From a virus (taxonomy: Duplodnaviria > Heunggongvirae > Uroviricota > Caudoviricetes): a stretch of DNA of 48,484 bases. Under the pieces are notes generated by a model, which did no database searches, was not told the DNA's origin, and saw only the letters and a program-made list of their open reading frames with translations. The stretch's first letter is position 1, and each line of letters opens with the position of its first letter. The position numbers were made by a program, and so were the translations under genes. This document shows positions 8,761-47,476 of the stretch, in pieces. The stretch is taken from positions 1-48,484 of IMG/VR virus record IMGVR_UViG_2737471860_000008; one strand, 5' to 3'.

Positions 8761-8961
8761 TCAGGCAGCCTTGTTATTCTGTTTACCAAGTTCTCTGGCA
8801 ATCATTGCCGTTGTTCGTATTGCCCATTTATCGACATATTTCCCATTCTCCATTACAGGAAACATTTCTTCAGGCTTAACCATGCATTCCGATTGCAGCT
8901 TGCATCCATTGCATCGCTTGAATTGTCCACACCATTGATTTTTATCAATAGTCGTAGTCAT
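8761..8961 (-). CDS. Small Cys-rich (zinc-ribbon-like) protein, 66 aa
   Basis: C-x5-C-x2-C-x5-C cluster (CGQFKRCNGCKLQSEC); just downstream of N. Confidence 0.45.
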   Translation of the reverse strand: MTTTIDKNQWCGQFKRCNGCKLQSECMVKPEEMFPVMENGKYVDKWAIRTTAMIARELGKQNNKAA

Positions 8962-11374: not shown

Positions 11375-12266
11375 CATATCTAATCTAGCCGAAGCCAGAG
11401 AGGCCAGAAGGCTACAACAACCGCATCAAAGCAGCGGTAAGGGGTATGCCTTGCTGCACCGTAAAATTATGGATGTGCCGTTTTACAAGGACGCAGAAGC
11501 TGCGCATCTGTGGGTTCACTTAATCCTCAAAGCAAAGTATACGCCTGAGTATGTAATGACTGACGCAGGAGAAATTCTGGTAGGCAGAGGGAAGCTACTT
11601 GGCGGTAGAAACTCTCTGGCGTTTGAAACAGGACTCAAACCAGATCGCGTTCAGTACCTGCTTAGAAAGTTCAAAAAACTCGGCATGATTGACTGGGTTT
11701 CACACGGTAAATTCTCAGTTTTCTCGGTAGAGAAATATGACGATTATCAGTCAAATTTTGTACCAGCAGATTACCAGCAAATTACCACCTCAAAGCCAGC
11801 AATACCAATGCCTGCAAGCAATACTGTACCAGCAGATTACCAGCAAATTACCACAGGTAAAGAATATAATAATATTATCTCTAATACTGACGTATTAGAG
11901 AGTGCCACAGCAGACAAAAAGTCTGACAAGAAAAAACCTTCCGTCAGCTGTCAGGATGTTGTCGATGCTTACCACGAAATCCTTCCTGAAGCGCAAAAAA
12001 TCCGCGCACTGAATGACAAGCGTAAAAACCAGATCCGAACGTTCTGGCGCAAAGCCGGAGTGATAACCCGCCAGCTTGACGGGCATGGGTTCACGATGCA
12101 GGACTGGAGAAATTATTTGATCTACGTAGGCGAAAATTGCCGATGGATGTTCGAAGAACGCCCAAACCATCAACGCGGAACCGTCTGGCACAAAAAGGGA
12201 TTTGATTTCCTGCTTAACGACAATACCTACCTGAAAGTTCGTGAGGGTGAACACGATGACCGATAA
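11367..12266 (+). CDS. Replication initiation protein (O-like, iteron-binding), 299 aa
   Basis: Position after cII; ori-type iterons lie inside the gene and encode the duplicated peptide [10 protein letters not shown]. Confidence 0.7.
11759..11854 (+). repeat. Replication origin iterons: two perfect 30-bp direct repeats plus AT-rich tract
   Basis: TGTACCAGCAGATTACCAGCAAATTACCAC at 11759-11788 and 11825-11854, followed by AT-rich sequence at about 11855-11895. Confidence 0.65.
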
Positions 12267-13692
12267 TTTTTATGCGCCGCCCCATAGCATCGAGGCAGAG
12301 CAGGCGGTGATTGGTGGATTGCTTCTGGATGATGACAGCAGTGAGCGCGTCCGGAAAGTTCTGGCGATGCTGAAGCCTGATTCATTTTACAGCCGACCAC
12401 ACAAAATTCTTTTCGAAGAAATAACCAGAATGCACCGGGAGCAAAAGCCAGTAGATGGCCTGACGCTTTTCGATGAACTGGAGCGCAAATCGTTAACGGT
12501 GTCTGTTGGCGGTTTTGCTTATATCGCTGAGATCGCAAAGAACACGCCAAGCGCAGCAAACATCGTTGCCTATGCAATGCAGGTTCGTGAAACCGCAATG
12601 GAACGCTACGCCATCAACCGCATGACTGAAGCGACGGAATTGCTCTATTCCCGCAACGGAATGACTGCAACGCAGAAGTACGAAGCTATTCAGGCGATTT
12701 TCACGCAACTGACAGACCATGCAAAAACCGGATCGCGTCGCGGCCTTCGCTCATTTGGTGAGATCATGGAAGACTGGGTTAGCGACCTTGAGAAGCGATT
12801 TGATCCGTCAGGCGAACAGCGAGGAATGAGCACAGGGATCCCATCGCTGGACAGGATGCTGTCACCGAAAGGTCTGGTGAAAGGCTCTCTGTTTGTCATT
12901 GGCGCTCGCCCTAAGATGGGGAAAACGACGCTATACAGCCAGATGGCAATCAACTGCGCAGTGCATGAGAAAAAGCCCGCTCTGATGTTCAGCCTTGAAA
13001 TGCCAGGTGACCAGATACTGGAAAAACTGGTAGGGCAGAAGTCTGGTGTTAACCCGAATATTTTTTACCTTCCGGCGACAAATGACGCTGATGACGGCTA
13101 TCAGGGTGATTACGATGGTGACTTCAACAGGGCGATCGAAACAGCCAATCGCTTGAGTGAAATCGACATGCTTTACATCGACGACACGCCGGGATTATCT
13201 CTGGCTCAAATCGTCAGCGAAAGCCGTCGAATCAAGCGAGAAAAAGGATGTGTTGGCATGATTCTGGTCGATTACCTGACACTAATGACCGCTGAAAAGG
13301 CCGATCGCAACGACCTTGCTTACGGCATGATCACCAAAGGACTGAAGAACCTTGCCAAAGAGCTTGATTGCGTTGTTGTGCTTCTGACACAGCTTAACCG
13401 CGCACTGGAAAGCCGAACCAATAAACGCCCATTACCAAGTGACTCACGAGATACAGGGCAGATTGAACAGGATTGCGATTATTGGGTGGGGATCCATCGT
13501 GAAGGTGCTTTTGATGACAGTGTTCCACCTGGTGAAACCGAACTAATCCTTCGTCTCAATCGTCATGGCAATACCGGCACGGTGTATTGCATTCAGGCAA
13601 ATGGCGCTATTTATGACACAGACCAACAGTCTGCTGAAATGCGCCGCCGTGAACGCGAGGAGCCGCAGTCCAAGAAGAAAGGAGGATTCTGA
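12256..13692 (+). CDS. Replicative DNA helicase (DnaB family), ~478 aa
   Basis: Walker A GARPKMGKTT, DnaB N-terminal domain (IEAEQAVIGGLLLD), RecA-like core; start moved to ATG 12256 (GAGGGTGA SD). Confidence 0.85.
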   Translation: MTDNFYAPPHSIEAEQAVIGGLLLDDDSSERVRKVLAMLKPDSFYSRPHKILFEEITRMHREQKPVDGLTLFDELERKSLTVSVGGFAYIAEIAKNTPSAANIVAYAMQVRETAMERYAINRMTEATELLYSRNGMTATQKYEAIQAIFTQLTDHAKTGSRRGLRSFGEIMEDWVSDLEKRFDPSGEQRGMSTGIPSLDRMLSPKGLVKGSLFVIGARPKMGKTTLYSQMAINCAVHEKKPALMFSLEMPGDQILEKLVGQKSGVNPNIFYLPATNDADDGYQGDYDGDFNRAIETANRLSEIDMLYIDDTPGLSLAQIVSESRRIKREKGCVGMILVDYLTLMTAEKADRNDLAYGMITKGLKNLAKELDCVVVLLTQLNRALESRTNKRPLPSDSRDTGQIEQDCDYWVGIHREGAFDDSVPPGETELILRLNRHGNTGTVYCIQANGAIYDTDQQSAEMRRREREEPQSKKKGGF

Positions 13693-13721
13693 TGACCATC
13701 TACATCACTGAGCTAATAACA

Positions 13722-13752
13722 GGGGCTATTTACACAGTAGCCCTTTTTTATT
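13722..13752 (+). terminator. Rho-independent terminator after the helicase gene (tR2-like)
   Basis: Hairpin GGGCTA-loop-TAGCCC followed by TTTTTTATT. Confidence 0.6.
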
Positions 13753-13776
13753 GGATTAAGAACGAGGGGGATCCTG

Positions 13777-13980
13777 ATGGACACCGTTAACGGAATGTGT
13801 TCAGACGCACCGCGTGCCAAAAAATGTAAATGCGGAAAATCACCGACAATATTCGACATGGAGAACGGGTGCCAAATCTACTGCGTTAACCACGCTGCTG
13901 TGGCGGCTGCGAATTATCGCAGTGCGGTAACGGAGTGGAATAACCTGAAATCTGTTAGAGAGGGAAGTCATGAATCTTGA
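13777..13980 (+). CDS. Small Cys-rich nin-region protein, 67 aa
   Basis: GAGGGGG SD; Cys cluster CKCGKS...CQIYCVNH. Confidence 0.45.
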   Translation: MDTVNGMCSDAPRAKKCKCGKSPTIFDMENGCQIYCVNHAAVAAANYRSAVTEWNNLKSVREGSHES

Positions 13981-14152
13981 CGAGCAAGATGCACAAACTA
14001 TTAGCTCATACATAAGGGCATCAAGACCAGATTACAAAGGTCCGGTATTCGTAGATTTATCTCGCCTTGAGGAGATTTACATGTGGGAAGCAAAGCTACG
14101 TACGCATCTTTTTATTCGCAAGATGACTAGCAACATTACAAAACCAATGTAA
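13970..14152 (+). CDS. Hypothetical nin-region protein, 60 aa
   Basis: ORF in operon context. Confidence 0.4.
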   Translation: MNLDEQDAQTISSYIRASRPDYKGPVFVDLSRLEEIYMWEAKLRTHLFIRKMTSNITKPM

Positions 14153-14160
14153 CTAGAGAG

Positions 14161-14382
14161 GTGAATATGAGCACACTCGCAGACCTTATTCATGCTGATA
14201 TGGCGGAAGATGGAGCAAGGCGTAATAGGTACTGGAAATCATCAAGCCTTCCAGTTTATGAAAGATTCAACCACAGGCCAAAACCAAAACGGAGTCGAAG
14301 AGACAAGGTGTTGAAAAAACTCATGCAAATTAACATGGCTGGTTTTGTCAGATTCGTGAGTGAAACGACTAACGGGGATTGA
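14161..14382 (+). CDS. Hypothetical basic nin-region protein, 73 aa
   Basis: GAGAGG SD; basic C-terminal half. Confidence 0.4.
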   Translation: MNMSTLADLIHADMAEDGARRNRYWKSSSLPVYERFNHRPKPKRSRRDKVLKKLMQINMAGFVRFVSETTNGD

Positions 14383-14383
14383 T

Positions 14384-14842
14384 ATGGACGATTCAAGAAA
14401 GCAGTTTGAAGAGTGGTTTAAAAACAAATATCACGTTTCAAGTGACGTGATGAAGATTATGCACATCAAGGTCGAGATTGCATGGGAGGCATGGCAGGCA
14501 TCGCGAGCAGCTATTGAAATAACCGCGCCAAAGTTTATCGACAGCAGAGAAGCATTAGCCAAAGGGTTTACTGTTGATTATTCCAATGGCTTCGGTGATG
14601 CAATGGATGCTTATGAGGAAAACATCCAGCTCTGCTGGAGTCAAAGTGAAGGAGTGAGTATGAGCGAGTTAAAGCCATGCCCGTTTTGCGGAGACAACGC
14701 GATGATTATGCGCATTCCTGAAAGTGGATGGCGATATGGCCAGTGCATGTCATGTTTTAGCAATGGCCCAAAGAGGCCTGATTACGAAGGCGCGGTAATA
14801 GCATGGAACCGGAGAGCAGGAGATGAAGAAACTAACGTTTGA
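14384..14842 (+). CDS. Protein with C-terminal Lar-family (restriction alleviation) zinc ribbon; possible nested start at 14660
   Basis: C-terminus MSELKPCPFCG...CMSC...AWNRRA matches the Lar-type motif; AAGGAG SD precedes the internal ATG at 14660. Confidence 0.55.
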   Translation: MDDSRKQFEEWFKNKYHVSSDVMKIMHIKVEIAWEAWQASRAAIEITAPKFIDSREALAKGFTVDYSNGFGDAMDAYEENIQLCWSQSEGVSMSELKPCPFCGDNAMIMRIPESGWRYGQCMSCFSNGPKRPDYEGAVIAWNRRAGDEETNV

Positions 14843-15239
14843 ACTAAGAAGCCACATCCATCAGCAGAACGCCATTCAAGCCATCCAGCAAATCCTTCCA
14901 GACCCAACCAAACCAATCGTAGTAACCATTCAGGAACGCAACCGCAGCATTCGGCAAAATGCACGCCTTCACGCGATGCTATCTGAAATAAGTAAGAAGG
15001 CTACATATCATGGAAAAGCAAGAAATATTGAGTTTTGGAAGGGGTTATTCGTTTCTGGTTGGCAGATTGCAACCAACCAGCACCCTGAGATTATATCAGG
15101 GTTAGAAGGTGAGCTAATAAACATCAGAGAGAGTACGGCGACTCTATCTGTAAAAAAAATATCCGAAATAATGGACTACATAGAAGCATATTGTGCCATG
15201 AACTCAATTCATCTTAGCGAATGGAGGAATTATGATTGA
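14823..15239 (+). CDS. ninB: NinB-like recombination protein, C-terminally altered by an HNH cassette insertion
   Basis: N-terminus MKKLTFELRSHIHQQNAIQAIQQILPDPTKPIVVTIQERNRS matches lambda NinB as I recall it; the native C-terminal codons (KARWGDRAA) are found at 15805-15834 fused to the HNH ORF. Confidence 0.7.
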   Translation: MKKLTFELRSHIHQQNAIQAIQQILPDPTKPIVVTIQERNRSIRQNARLHAMLSEISKKATYHGKARNIEFWKGLFVSGWQIATNQHPEIISGLEGELINIRESTATLSVKKISEIMDYIEAYCAMNSIHLSEWRNYD

Positions 15240-15834
15240 GGTTTGGGTAGATATCGAAGGGATTCCATTTTATCAGGTTAGCAATAAAGGAAATTTCAGG
15301 TCTATTACGAGGGAAGTTACAGTAACATCAACCAGACAGAGGCCATATAAGAAAATAATTAATGGCACTAGTGTAAAACCATTCAAGTGCAAGTCGACAG
15401 GATATCTTCAAATAAAGGTATACGGTAAGAAATACAGCGCCCACAGGATAGTTGCGAAAGCATTCTGTACAGGGTTTTGTGATGGCTTGGTAGTTAATCA
15501 CAAAAATGGGCGAAGAGATGACAATAGGGCTGATAACCTTGAATGGGTATCACATTCTGAAAACTCAAAACACGGATATAAACAAAATGGAAGAATACCT
15601 ATATCGCTAGGTAAATTTAGTGGTGACCATCCTGCCAGTAAAGCTGTTATTTCTACTGACATGAAAACTGGGGAGGAGGTTTATTATGAAGCAGCTATGG
15701 ATGCTGTCAGAGAAGGATTTGATAGTTCGTCAATTAGTCGTTGCTGTAATGGCGAAAGCTCATATCACAAAGGAAGATTCTGGCGATTTGCAAATGAAAA
15801 AATGAAAGCGCGATGGGGAGACCGGGCAGCATGA
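15232..15834 (+). CDS. HNH homing-type endonuclease, 200 aa, ending in the displaced ninB 3' codons
   Basis: HNH motif [24 protein letters not shown]; NUMOD-like N-terminus; AT-rich relative to flanks; own GGAGG SD. Confidence 0.8.
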
Positions 15835-16153: not shown

Positions 16154-16859
16154 TTGACCAAAATCGAAGTTACGAACAAGAAAGCGTCGAGCGAGCTTTA
16201 ACGTGCGCTAACTGCGGTCAGAAGCTGCATGTGCTGGAAGTTCACGTGTGTGAGCGTTGTATATATGAATGCTTAAATATGGTGGAACATAATGAGAAAT
16301 ATAAGCAACATAGACGAATTAAGAAATAAATTATCATATGATGATGTTTTAGGTGTACTTAGATGGAAAGTGTCTCCTTCTAATAATGTTAAGGTTGGCA
16401 GTGTTGCTGGTTACATTAGGAGTGATGGTTATAGGATGTTAACTATCGATGGTGTAATTACTTATGCTCACCACGTCATATGGATGATAAATAATGGTGA
16501 GATTCCATTAGGGTATAAAATTGATCATATAAATGGAGTAAGGTCAGATAATAGGCTATCTAATCTTCGATTGGTTACACACCAACAGAATGCACAGAAC
16601 CAAAAGAGAAAAATAACCAATTCGTCAGGAGTGACTGGAGTATATTTCAATAAAGAGAGATGTAAGTGGATTGCGAATATATGCGTAGATGGGCGCACCA
16701 AATATCTTGGAATATTTGCTAGCATCATTGACGCTATTGCAGAAAGGAAGAGGGCAGAAAAAGAACTGGGTTTTCATGAAAACCATGGCAGACCATAACT
16801 GCGCAGAACTGATGAGCGATCCGAATAGCTCGATGCACGAGGAAGAAGACGATGAATGA
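16150..16859 (+). pseudogene. ninF: ninF split by a 539-bp HNH endonuclease cassette (5' part 16150-16260, 3' part 16800-16859 in a different frame)
   Basis: 5' part encodes ...QESVERALTCANCGQKLHVLEVHVCERC and 3' part encodes CAELMSDPNSSMHEEEDDE, which together match lambda NinF as I recall it; 539 bp between them shifts the frame. Confidence 0.6.
16292..16798 (+). CDS. HNH endonuclease with AP2-like DNA-binding region, 168 aa
   Basis: HNH motif IDHINGVRSDNRLSNLRLVTHQQN; AT-rich; lies entirely within the ninF interruption. Confidence 0.8.
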   Translation: MRNISNIDELRNKLSYDDVLGVLRWKVSPSNNVKVGSVAGYIRSDGYRMLTIDGVITYAHHVIWMINNGEIPLGYKIDHINGVRSDNRLSNLRLVTHQQNAQNQKRKITNSSGVTGVYFNKERCKWIANICVDGRTKYLGIFASIIDAIAERKRAEKELGFHENHGRP

Positions 16860-18879: not shown

Positions 18880-18954
18880 GGGTCAGTCGTATAAAGGTCA
18901 TTACGGAAGGCTGTTAACCTTCTTATCGTGGTTCGAGTCCACGCTGTCCCGCCA
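18880..18954 (+). tRNA. tRNA-like gene, anticodon GUU (Asn), with imperfect acceptor and D stems
   Basis: Hand-folded cloverleaf: anticodon loop CTGTTAA, T arm CGTGG-TTCGAGT-CCACG, encoded CCA; one mismatch each in acceptor and D stems. Confidence 0.45.
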
Positions 18955-18959
18955 AACAT

Positions 18960-19035
18960 GCTGTTTTAGCTCCAATGGTAGAGCGGTCGCCTTGTAAGCG
19001 AATGGGTAGCGGTTCAAGTCCGTTAAACAGCACCA
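18960..19035 (+). tRNA. tRNA-Thr (anticodon UGU), 76 nt with encoded CCA
   Basis: Hand-folded: 7-bp acceptor stem GCTGTTT/AAACAGC, D stem GCTC/GAGC, anticodon loop CTTGTAA, T loop TTCAAGT. Confidence 0.7.
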
Positions 19036-47401: not shown

Positions 47402-47416
47402 TGGTGTCCCCTGCAG
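47402..47416. repeat. attL core (copy of the 15-bp att repeat, part of argW 3' end)
   Basis: Exact match to 1690-1704. Confidence 0.8.
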
Positions 47417-47476
47417 GAATCGAACCTGCAATTAGCCCTTAGGAGGGGCTCGTTATATCCATTTAACTAAGAGGAC
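47402..47476 (-). tRNA. argW: tRNA-Arg (anticodon CCU), 75 nt
   Basis: Minus-strand sequence GTCCTCTTAGTTAAATGGATATAACGAGCCCCTCCTAAGGGCTAATTGCAGGTTCGATTCCTGCAGGGGACACCA folds as cloverleaf with anticodon CCT. Confidence 0.9.

What the first reader, a model, noticed from the sequence alone, without database searches (positions are those of the whole stretch)
14384..14842. Lar-type restriction-alleviation zinc ribbon fused in frame to an upstream domain, with an internal SD and start
The C-terminal 60 aa (MSELKPCPFCG...AWNRRA) look like a stand-alone Lar-family protein and are preceded by a strong AAGGAG SD at the right spacing, yet the reading frame is open for another ~90 codons upstream. Either two isoforms are made or an N-terminal domain has been fused to an anti-restriction module. 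Neighbouring small Cys-rich ORFs (13777-14382) may belong to the same anti-defence cluster.
Basis: partly seen in the sequence, partly recalled or inferred. Interest (0 to 1): 0.45.

Follow-up and report, generated by a model that had tools for sequence, protein, structure and literature searches.

The report
Frameshift fusion of two prophage genes
A single extra base in a lambda-like E. coli prophage has joined two normally separate small genes, one of unknown function and one Lar-type zinc-ribbon gene, into one reading frame; this is a rare but real mutant allele, not a designed two-domain anti-restriction protein.

Summary
Positions 14384-14842 (+) form one open 152-codon frame. Its last 60 codons, from ATG 14660, are a Lar-family zinc ribbon (Pfam PF14354, 43.4 bits against a 28.6 cut-off), preceded by AAGGAG at 14649-14654.

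The fusion comes from one inserted A at 14628. Six aligned relatives lack that base. In them a Phage_phiTE_015-family gene of about 90-106 aa ends '...AG[IV]KVKE', then TGA, then 2 nt, then the ATG of the next gene. Removing A14628 restores a 90-aa protein identical to a database protein, P0001.

The "internal SD and start" is therefore the Lar gene's own ribosome-binding site, at a junction conserved in most lambdoid relatives.

The allele is not a sequencing error. The same 459 bp occur in 11 independent assemblies whose flanks have diverged and whose modules have been swapped. It is rare: 0 of 5,426 complete E. coli genomes carry it, and no representative among 1.84 billion proteins has both domains.

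A second, independent 2-nt deletion makes an equivalent fusion in another phage background.

The insertion completes a quasipalindrome (TCCAGC-TCT-GCTGGA), which suggests a template-switch mutation. The frameshift removes invariant C-terminal residues of the upstream protein.

Most likely Lar is still made from its own start, alongside a damaged fusion product. The finding is ordinary and of low interest.

The parts
14384..14842 (+). Fused ORF of 152 aa. It is identical to GenBank KIG92799.1 (P0124).
   Evidence: Precomputed Pfam: PF26207 Phage_phiTE_015 plus PF14354 Lar_restr_allev.
14384..14627 (+). Unaltered part of the phiTE_015-family gene (residues 1-81). It is identical to residues 1-81 of the 90-aa protein P0001.
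   Evidence: Its AlphaFold2 model has mean pLDDT 79.7.
14628..14628 (+). Inserted A, a +1 frameshift mutation that creates the fusion.
   Evidence: Alignment A1: the base is absent from 6 relatives. It is present in all 11 carrier loci. Deleting it restores P0001 exactly.
14625..14639 (.). Perfect palindrome TCCAGC-TCT-GCTGGA. The inserted A completes it; the wild type reads TCC-GC TCT GCTGGA.
   Evidence: One search lists it as a 6-bp stem. Quasipalindrome template-switch mutagenesis in E. coli is described in PMC7202029. The link to this insertion is inference.
14629..14659 (+). Out-of-frame linker. Residues 82-92 read QLCWSQSEGVS and replace the ancestral RSAGVKVKE-stop.
   Evidence: G85 and K89 are invariant in the family, and I81 and V88 nearly so (alignment A2).
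14649..14654 (+). Shine-Dalgarno sequence AAGGAG of the Lar gene, 5 nt upstream of its ATG.
   Evidence: It is conserved in all relatives.
14655..14657 (+). Ancestral TGA stop of the phiTE_015 gene, now out of frame.
14660..14842 (+). Lar-family zinc-ribbon gene of 60 aa (P0121). The zinc ligands would be C7, C10, C29 and C32 of this ORF, and a C-terminal helix carries the A..WNRR motif.
   Evidence: Its AlphaFold2 model has mean pLDDT 82.9.
14823..15239 (+). The ninB gene. Its start overlaps the last 20 nt of the Lar ORF, and this overlap forms the right-hand junction of the cassette.
   Evidence: Pfam NinB at 137.9 bits, with positions.
14167..14382 (+). Upstream DUF7301 gene. Its TGA stop lies 1 nt before the ATG at 14384.
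   Evidence: Pfam PF23975 at 108.5 bits, with sequence.

Best explanation
**Location.** The locus is the variable slot between the replication genes and ninB of a lambdoid prophage, on E. coli contig JWZI01000007.1.

**Ordinary arrangement.** A small gene of the Phage_phiTE_015 family (function unknown) ends '...AG[IV]KVKE' plus TGA. The stop directly follows the AAGGAG that serves as Shine-Dalgarno sequence for the next gene, whose ATG lies 2 nt after the stop. This is the tightly packed, translationally coupled pattern typical of nin regions. In this phage the next gene is a 60-aa Lar-family zinc ribbon.

**The mutation.** In one lineage a single A was inserted 27 nt before the stop, at 14628. 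It probably arose by a template switch that completed a quasipalindrome. The insertion shifts the upstream frame into the Lar frame. That frame happens to be open for about 14 codons upstream of the Lar ATG, so the two genes now read as one 152-codon ORF.

**Shown.**
- The insertion and its absence from relatives.
- Exact restoration of a known 90-aa protein when the base is removed.
- The presence of the allele in independent, diverged assemblies, and its rarity.
- A second, independent fusion.

**Inferred.**
- The Lar ribosome-binding site is untouched, so the 60-aa Lar protein is still made by internal initiation.
- Ribosomes that start at 14384 additionally make a 152-aa fusion. Its phiTE_015 moiety lacks the end of its last helix and its conserved C-terminal strand, so it is probably impaired.
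- Translation now runs uninterrupted to the ninB overlap, so the mutation is non-polar. That would explain why it is tolerated and persists as a roughly neutral allele.
- The Lar module probably acts like other Lar-family proteins, as a small zinc-ribbon modulator of host restriction. This is inferred from family membership only.
For: - **The insertion.** The A at 14628 is absent from six relatives in alignment A1 and from all wild-type junctions listed.
- **Repair test.** Deleting it yields a 90-aa protein identical to P0001.
- **Same neighbourhood, two genes.** E. coli MB64 has the gene order DUF7301 | phiTE_015 family | Lar family | NinB | NUMOD4, with two separate genes. At least 20 contigs carry a 98%-identical Lar in the unfused arrangement.
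- **Family pattern.** Of 120 homologue clusters, 82 end in G[VI]KVKE and none has a Lar motif. Of 80 viral loci, 70 end in K[VL]KE and 66 have a 2-nt gap to the next ATG.
- **No established fusion.** A HMMER scan of 1.84 billion representative proteins found none that covers both domains.
- **A real allele.** The same 459 bp occur in L008-L014 and L018-L021, from different projects. Their flanks differ by up to 37 SNPs in about 6 kb and carry different mosaic modules.
- **Rarity.** No complete E. coli genome (0 of 5,426) and no phage record covers 80% or more of the gene.
- **Second fusion.** A 2-nt deletion produces an equivalent fusion in L016 and L017.
- **Fusion window.** In wild-type loci the downstream frame is open for only 13-26 codons upstream of its ATG.
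- **Structural loss.** The frameshift removes invariant G85 and K89 and the predicted C-terminal strand 87-89.
- **Mutational signature.** The palindrome at 14625-14639, with background on quasipalindrome mutagenesis from PMC7202029.
- **Background.** Tight packing and stop/start overlaps of nin genes are described in PMC8022706.
Against: - No expression data exist. Whether the 60-aa form, the 152-aa form or both are made is inferred.
- The allele has persisted through divergence and module exchange, and a second independent fusion exists with the same Lar allele. This is also what one would expect if the fusion were mildly advantageous.
- The exact unfused ancestor (P0001-type gene directly followed by this Lar allele) was not found. 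P0001 itself lies upstream of a different gene.
- The conserved C-terminus of the phiTE_015 family could be conserved partly at the DNA level, as a recombination junction. Its loss may therefore cost less than assumed.
Confidence: 0.8

Rival explanations
1. Adaptive neo-fusion giving two isoforms. On this reading, selection favours tethering the phiTE_015 domain to the Lar zinc ribbon. The long form and the internally initiated short form would have distinct roles in countering host restriction.
For: - The allele occurs in 11 independent assemblies with diverged flanks and different mosaic modules.
- An independent 2-nt deletion created the same kind of fusion with the same Lar allele.
- Lar domains elsewhere often sit behind other N-terminal domains or occur in tandem (the PHROG 599 profile is 262 positions long).
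Against: - No fusion of these two domains appears among 1.84 billion representative proteins, nor among the 120 nearest phiTE_015 clusters.
- The carriers show no sequence diversification within the gene.
- The frameshift destroys invariant residues and a predicted strand of the N-terminal domain.
- phiTE_015 genes are followed by many unrelated genes, and by Lar-like genes in only 2 of 80 loci. There is therefore no sign of a functional partnership.
- Any +1 or -2 slip in the last ~42 nt gives a fusion automatically.
Confidence: 0.1
2. Sequencing or assembly error in this one contig. On this reading the real genome has two separate genes.
For: The difference is a single-base indel, and the draft assembly is the only NCBI record that calls the 152-aa protein.
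Against: - The same inserted A is present in 11 assemblies from unrelated accessions: four NCBI assemblies besides the source contig, and six SRA runs.
- The base does not lie in a homopolymer run (CC-A-GC).
Confidence: 0.02
3. Programmed recoding. On this reading the wild-type junction normally yields a fusion by ribosomal frameshifting, and this allele merely hard-wires it.
For: - The Lar frame is the -1 frame of the upstream gene and is open for about 14 codons before its ATG.
- A strong SD-like element sits at the stop codon.
Against: - There is no slippery heptamer of the X XXY YYZ type in GGAGTCAAAGTGAAGGAGTGA (read directly).
- The local RNA does not fold better than shuffled sequence (z-scores -0.09 to 0.82).
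- The same junction precedes many unrelated genes.
- A +1 slip at GAG-TGA would not enter the Lar frame.
Confidence: 0.01

Closest known systems
Lar / RalR of the Rac prophage, E. coli K-12 (Pfam PF14354, TIGR03655)
   Same: - The fold signature is the same: KPCPFCG...C..C...A..WN.R, with four cysteines and a C-terminal helix.
- The size is similar (60 aa against 64 aa) and both are carried on a prophage.
- The two share 32% identity over 50 aa, and the Pfam score is above the gathering threshold.
   Different: - It is not the RalR orthologue: the equivalog model NF007260 scores 22.8 bits against a cut-off of 113.
- It lies in the nin region upstream of ninB, not beside recET.
- No RalA-type antisense RNA, or any other Rfam family, was detected near it.
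- In this lineage it is read through from the upstream gene.
- Neither restriction alleviation (King & Murray 1995, cited in PMC4041452) nor the DNase toxicity reported for RalR (PMC4041452) has been tested for this subfamily.
Unfused phiTE_015 + Lar cassette of other lambdoid prophages (for example E. coli MB64, WP_257198707.1 + WP_373569450.1)
   Same: The gene order (DUF7301, phiTE_015 family, Lar family, NinB, NUMOD4-HNH) and the junction sequence are the same.
   Different: MB64 and the carriers of P0129 keep the stop codon and so have two genes. The window has one extra A and one ORF.
Phage_phiTE_015 family (PF26207, PHROG 343)
   Same: Residues 1-81 are identical to family member P0001. 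The conserved W..WQASR.AIEI core is present.
   Different: The family's conserved C-terminus, I-R-x-A-G-[IV]-K-V-K-E, is replaced by QLCWSQSEGVS followed by the Lar domain.
Lambda Ral (PF11058)
   Same: Its proposed role is the same, alleviation of type I restriction. A full-length Ral homologue is also encoded in this prophage, at 8761-8961 on the minus strand (159.7 bits).
   Different: It is an unrelated sequence family and lies in a different operon, the early left operon.

Membership tests
Lar family (Pfam PF14354 Lar_restr_allev) | The HMM score reaches the Pfam gathering threshold. | tested here: met
   43.4 bits for the 60-aa ORF and 39.7 bits for the 152-aa ORF, against a cut-off of 28.6.
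Lar family (NCBIfam TIGR03655 anti_R_Lar) | The HMM score reaches the curated cut-off. | tested here: inconclusive
   The 60-aa ORF scores 39.6 bits, exactly at the cut-off of 39.6. The fused ORF scores 36.7 bits, below it.
Lar family | A four-cysteine zinc ribbon (CPFCG ... CxxC) followed by a helix carrying A..WN.R. | tested here: met
   C7, P8, F9, C10, C29, W49 and R52 are invariant, and C32, A45 and N50 nearly invariant, across 52 Lar-domain proteins including K-12 RalR. The AlphaFold2 model shows two beta-hairpins and a helix at residues 42-54, with mean pLDDT 82.9.
Lar family | Alleviates type I restriction or enhances modification in vivo. | not testable with these tools
   This needs plating of unmodified phage on EcoKI-type hosts.
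RalR type I toxin (NCBIfam NF007260 equivalog) | The equivalog HMM score reaches its cut-off. | tested here: not met
   22.8 bits against a cut-off of 113.
RalR type I toxin | A partner antisense small RNA (RalA) is present. | tested here: inconclusive
   No Rfam family other than three tRNAs reaches its gathering threshold anywhere in the window. I did not check whether Rfam holds a RalA model.
Phage_phiTE_015 (PF26207, PHROG 343) | A profile match over the whole domain. | tested here: met
   The collection's precomputed Pfam annotation lists PF26207 for the fused protein. The repaired protein matches PHROG 343 at E = 1e-28. My local Pfam copy lacks this model and gave no hit.
Phage_phiTE_015 | The conserved C-terminal motif I-R-x-A-G-[IVL]-x-V-K-[EK], followed immediately by a stop. 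| tested here: not met
   The motif is replaced by QLCWSQSEGVS as a result of the frameshift.

The most novel reading that the evidence does not exclude
The two independent frameshift fusions (+A in this lineage, -AT in L016 and L017) of a phiTE_015-family gene to the same Lar allele might not be neutral accidents. They might instead be a 'Rosetta stone' signal that the two proteins act together. If so, a covalently tethered form would give the prophage an advantage, for example by stabilising or targeting the Lar zinc ribbon against host restriction complexes. That would assign a first function to the phiTE_015 family.
Probability: 0.07. Interest if true: 0.45.

Novelty: new member of a known kind. 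Interest (0 to 1): 0.15.

Why it matters
The main value is for annotation. The same DNA is recorded in public databases as a 152-aa, a 60-aa and a 44-aa protein. It should be read as a frameshifted phiTE_015 gene followed by an intact Lar-family gene.

It is also a clear small example of three things:
- how the stop/SD/start junctions of lambdoid nin regions act as cassette boundaries;
- how a frameshift next to such a junction creates a gene fusion automatically;
- how a quasipalindrome may have seeded that mutation.

It does not reveal a new anti-restriction architecture.

Tried and rejected
- **Pfam for the N-terminal part.** The local Pfam and NCBIfam scans of the N-terminal 92 aa and of the repaired 90-aa protein gave no hit. 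The family was identified only through the precomputed PF26207 annotation and PHROG 343.
- **Modelling the whole fusion.** I tried to build a joint alignment for it (A3). MAFFT placed the Lar homologues on the N-terminal domain, so I dropped it and modelled the two parts separately.
- **Is the Cys-rich ORF 13777-13980 a degenerate Lar?** BLASTP found no alignment. hhalign gave probability 1.7% with the single sequence and 15% profile against profile. This is not established.
- **Programmed frameshifting.** Considered and rejected: there is no slippery site and no stable local RNA structure.
- **Sequencing error.** Rejected: there are 11 independent carriers.
- **Literature.** A search for phiTE_015, DUF7301, PF26207 and PF23975 found 0 papers.
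- **Collections.** No phage record and no complete E. coli genome contains the fused gene.

Full report
**1. What is in the sequence**

The window matches E. coli draft contig JWZI01000007.1 (GCA_000818995.1) with 100% identity over 20.5 kb. It carries a lambdoid prophage. The finding lies in the early right operon, between the DnaB-type helicase gene (12241-13692) and ninB (14823-15239).

The ORF 14384-14842 (+) is open for 152 codons. An in-frame ATG lies at 14660 (codon 93). It is preceded by AAGGAG at 14649-14654, with a 5-nt spacer.

The last 60 aa match Pfam PF14354 Lar_restr_allev at 43.4 bits (cut-off 28.6). They also match PHROG 599 'Lar-like restriction alleviation protein'.

**2. 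Why the frame is open**

Three annotated relatives carry a homologue of the N-terminal part as a stand-alone gene: phage mEp235 gp47, Salmonella phage UPF_BP1 gp14 and ST64T orf32. Each ends '...AG[IV]KVKE', then a stop, then 2 nt, then the ATG of the next gene.

An alignment of the junction from six relatives shows that the window has one extra base, the A at 14628. The window reads ATCC-A-GCTCTGCTGGAG.

Deleting that A gives a 90-aa protein ending ...ENIRSAGVKVKE, with TGA at 14655-14657. This protein is identical over its whole length to database protein P0001.

E. coli MB64 has the same neighbourhood but with two genes. The order is DUF7301, a 'phiTE_015 family protein' (104 aa), a 'Lar family restriction alleviation protein' (60 aa), NinB, then a NUMOD4-HNH gene.

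The 'fusion' is therefore a +1 frameshift 27 nt before the ancestral stop. The 'internal SD and start' is the native ribosome-binding site of the Lar gene.

**3. Real allele or error?**

It is a real allele. The exact 152-aa protein is in public data as KIG92799.1, and it is called on seven contigs.

Four more NCBI assemblies that call only the 60-aa Lar carry the same inserted A and leave the upstream 276 bp unannotated.

All 11 carrier loci have the 459-bp gene identical at the DNA level. Their flanks differ from the window by up to 37 SNPs in about 6 kb. They also carry different mosaic modules, for example P22-type terminase and portal genes in L010 and NinG, a phosphatase and a different antiterminator in L013. 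This fits a single origin followed by inheritance and spread.

The allele is nevertheless rare:
- no place in 5,426 complete E. coli genomes or in 50,697 phage records covers 80% or more of the gene;
- none of the 120 nearest homologue clusters contains a Lar motif;
- an exhaustive HMMER scan of 1.84 billion representative proteins found no protein that covers both domains.

**4. A second, independent fusion**

P0123 (167 aa, found in L016 and L017) joins a different phiTE_015 allele to the same Lar allele. The cause is a 2-nt deletion, GGAATCAAAG to GGACAAAG. Its unfused parent arrangement is present on at least 20 contigs.

In wild-type loci the downstream gene's frame is open for 13-26 codons upstream of its ATG, most often 14. 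Any +1 or -2 slip in the last ~42 nt therefore produces a fusion automatically.

Other changes to the tail also occur in this family. L086 has a -1 frameshift that gives an early stop. Eight of the 80 viral loci (L094-L101) instead end in the tail '...ANIHASQRSNQK', like protein P0084; I read this as a deletion joining the gene to the end of its downstream neighbour. The 3' end of this gene is thus altered often, and the fusions need not have been selected.

**5. The junction is a cassette boundary**

In 80 viral loci that encode family members, 70 genes end in K[VL]KE and 66 have a 2-nt gap to the next ATG. The downstream gene varies widely:

| Downstream gene | Loci (of 80) |
|---|---|
| NinB | 36 |
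| 61-aa protein beginning MSRRSS (hydrophobic, probably membrane) | 17 |
| 'MSAYEE...' proteins | 7 |
| 84-aa protein | 3 |
| Lar-like | 2 |
| other single genes | 5 |
| no ATG within 4 nt of the stop | 10 |

The inserted genes also share C-terminal tails ('...EETNV' or '...SQRSNQK'). For Lar, the tail is encoded by the first 20 nt of ninB read in another frame (14823-14842).

This matches the tight packing of lambdoid nin genes with stop/start overlaps (PMC8022706). It argues against any dedicated partnership between the phiTE_015 protein and Lar.

**6. Likely origin of the mutation**

The inserted A converts TCC-GC TCT GCTGGA into the perfect palindrome TCCAGC-TCT-GCTGGA at 14625-14639. One search lists this as a 6-bp stem.

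A mutation that completes an imperfect inverted repeat is the signature of quasipalindrome template-switch mutagenesis, which is described in E. coli (PMC7202029). The base does not lie in a homopolymer. This origin is inference, not proof.

**7. Consequences (inferred)**

The AlphaFold2 model of the repaired protein has mean pLDDT 79.7. It shows helices at residues 3-16, 20-25, 27-42, 54-59 and 70-83, and two short strands at 45-47 and 87-89.

The frameshift replaces everything from residue 82 onward. It removes invariant G85 and K89, nearly invariant V88, and the C-terminal strand. The N-terminal moiety of the fusion is therefore probably impaired.

The Lar SD and ATG are unchanged, so the 60-aa protein should still be made. 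Local RNA folding gives no sign that the site is sequestered (z-scores near 0).

Translation now runs continuously to the ninB overlap, so the mutation should not be polar. That would explain why it is tolerated.

**8. What the modules are**

*Lar module.* It has the four invariant cysteines and the A..WNRR helix. It shares 32% identity with K-12 RalR/Lar over 50 aa. It passes the Pfam threshold and sits exactly at the TIGR03655 cut-off. It fails the RalR equivalog model, with 22.8 bits against 113. It is therefore a member of the broad Lar family, not the RalR orthologue. Neither restriction alleviation (King & Murray 1995, cited in PMC4041452) nor DNase toxicity (PMC4041452) is established for this subfamily.

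*phiTE_015 module.* It has no known function, no related solved structure by sequence search and no meaningful fold match.

**9. The neighbours**

The three ORFs upstream are 13777-13980 (PHROG 6308), 13970-14152 (PHROG 21123) and 14167-14382 (DUF7301, PHROG 1785). All are families of unknown function.

Only the first has cysteines. Its weak resemblance to Lar (hhalign probability 15%) is not established. An 'anti-defence cluster' is not supported. Separately, the prophage does encode a full-length Ral homologue at 8761-8961 on the minus strand.

**10. Verdict**

The feature is a rare but genuine frameshift allele that fuses two ordinarily separate, translationally coupled nin-region genes. 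It is an ordinary event and matters mainly for annotation. Interest is 0.15. The unexcluded novel reading, that the fusion is selected and reveals a functional link between the two proteins, has a probability of about 0.07.

Noticed in passing
L022-L101 (junction at about 1760-1830 of each locus); window 14643-14662 and 14823-14842: The slot between the phiTE_015-family gene and ninB behaves like a cassette site. It has a conserved left junction (AAAGTGAAGGAGTGAGTATGAG) and a right junction inside the 5' end of ninB. At least eight unrelated small genes occupy it in different phages. Their C-terminal tails ('EETNV', 'SQRSNQK') appear to go with the ninB allele that follows, as seen in the window, where the tail is ninB's 5' end read in another frame.
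   Followed up: partly
L094-L101 (phiTE_015 match starts at 1501 in each); protein P0084: Eight of the 80 viral loci carry a 109-aa variant ending '...AGIKEKNFYEANIHASQRSNQK'. It looks like a deletion that joins the phiTE_015 gene to the tail of the downstream small gene. This is a different kind of fusion at the same junction, and it is common in Salmonella: the P0084 cluster has 98 member sequences and was seen on 23 contigs.
   Followed up: no
L086, about 1780-1810: A 1-nt deletion (GCTGGAGTC to GCTGAGTC) in the same 3' tail gives an early TGA ('...IRSAESK') instead of a fusion. This shows that frameshifts in this tail recur.
   Followed up: no
window 8761-8961 (-): A full-length homologue of lambda Ral, an antirestriction protein (PF11058, 159.7 bits). 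The prophage therefore carries both a Ral gene and a Lar-family gene.
   Followed up: partly
window 13777-13980 (+): A 67-aa ORF with five cysteines (PHROG 6308). Its pattern, KCKCG...C...C...AVTEWNN, loosely mirrors the Lar layout. A profile-profile comparison aligns 45 columns but gives only 15% probability.
   Followed up: partly
window 13692-13790 (+) and 13721-13745: A terminator-like hairpin followed by a T-run lies just after the helicase gene, inside a 32-aa ORF (PHROG 5907). Phage mEp235 has an annotated rho-independent terminator at the same relative position, so this is probably a tR2-type terminator at the entry to the nin region.
   Followed up: no
window 15232-15834 (+) and 16292-16798 (+): Two HNH endonuclease genes lie within the nin region, one NUMOD4 + HNH_3 and one HNH_3. 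They are likely homing-endonuclease-type insertions.
   Followed up: no
window 18880-19035 (+) and 47402-47476 (-): tRNA-Asn(GTT) and tRNA-Thr(TGT) lie between the Q-type antiterminator gene and the lysis genes. A tRNA-Arg(CCT) lies near the right end of the window.
   Followed up: no
proteins P0121, P0122 and P0124 (window 14384-14842): The same DNA is recorded in public databases with three gene calls: 152 aa (KIG92799.1), 60 aa (Lar family) and 44 aa (WP_244462268.1). This is inconsistent annotation of a frameshifted locus.
   Followed up: partly
proteins P0082 and P0115 (phiTE_015 family): Some family members carry N-terminal extensions. One (P0115, 160 aa) includes a CxxC...CDC segment. 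The family is also mosaic internally: the N-terminal and central blocks vary around a conserved W.AWQASRAAIEI core.
   Followed up: no
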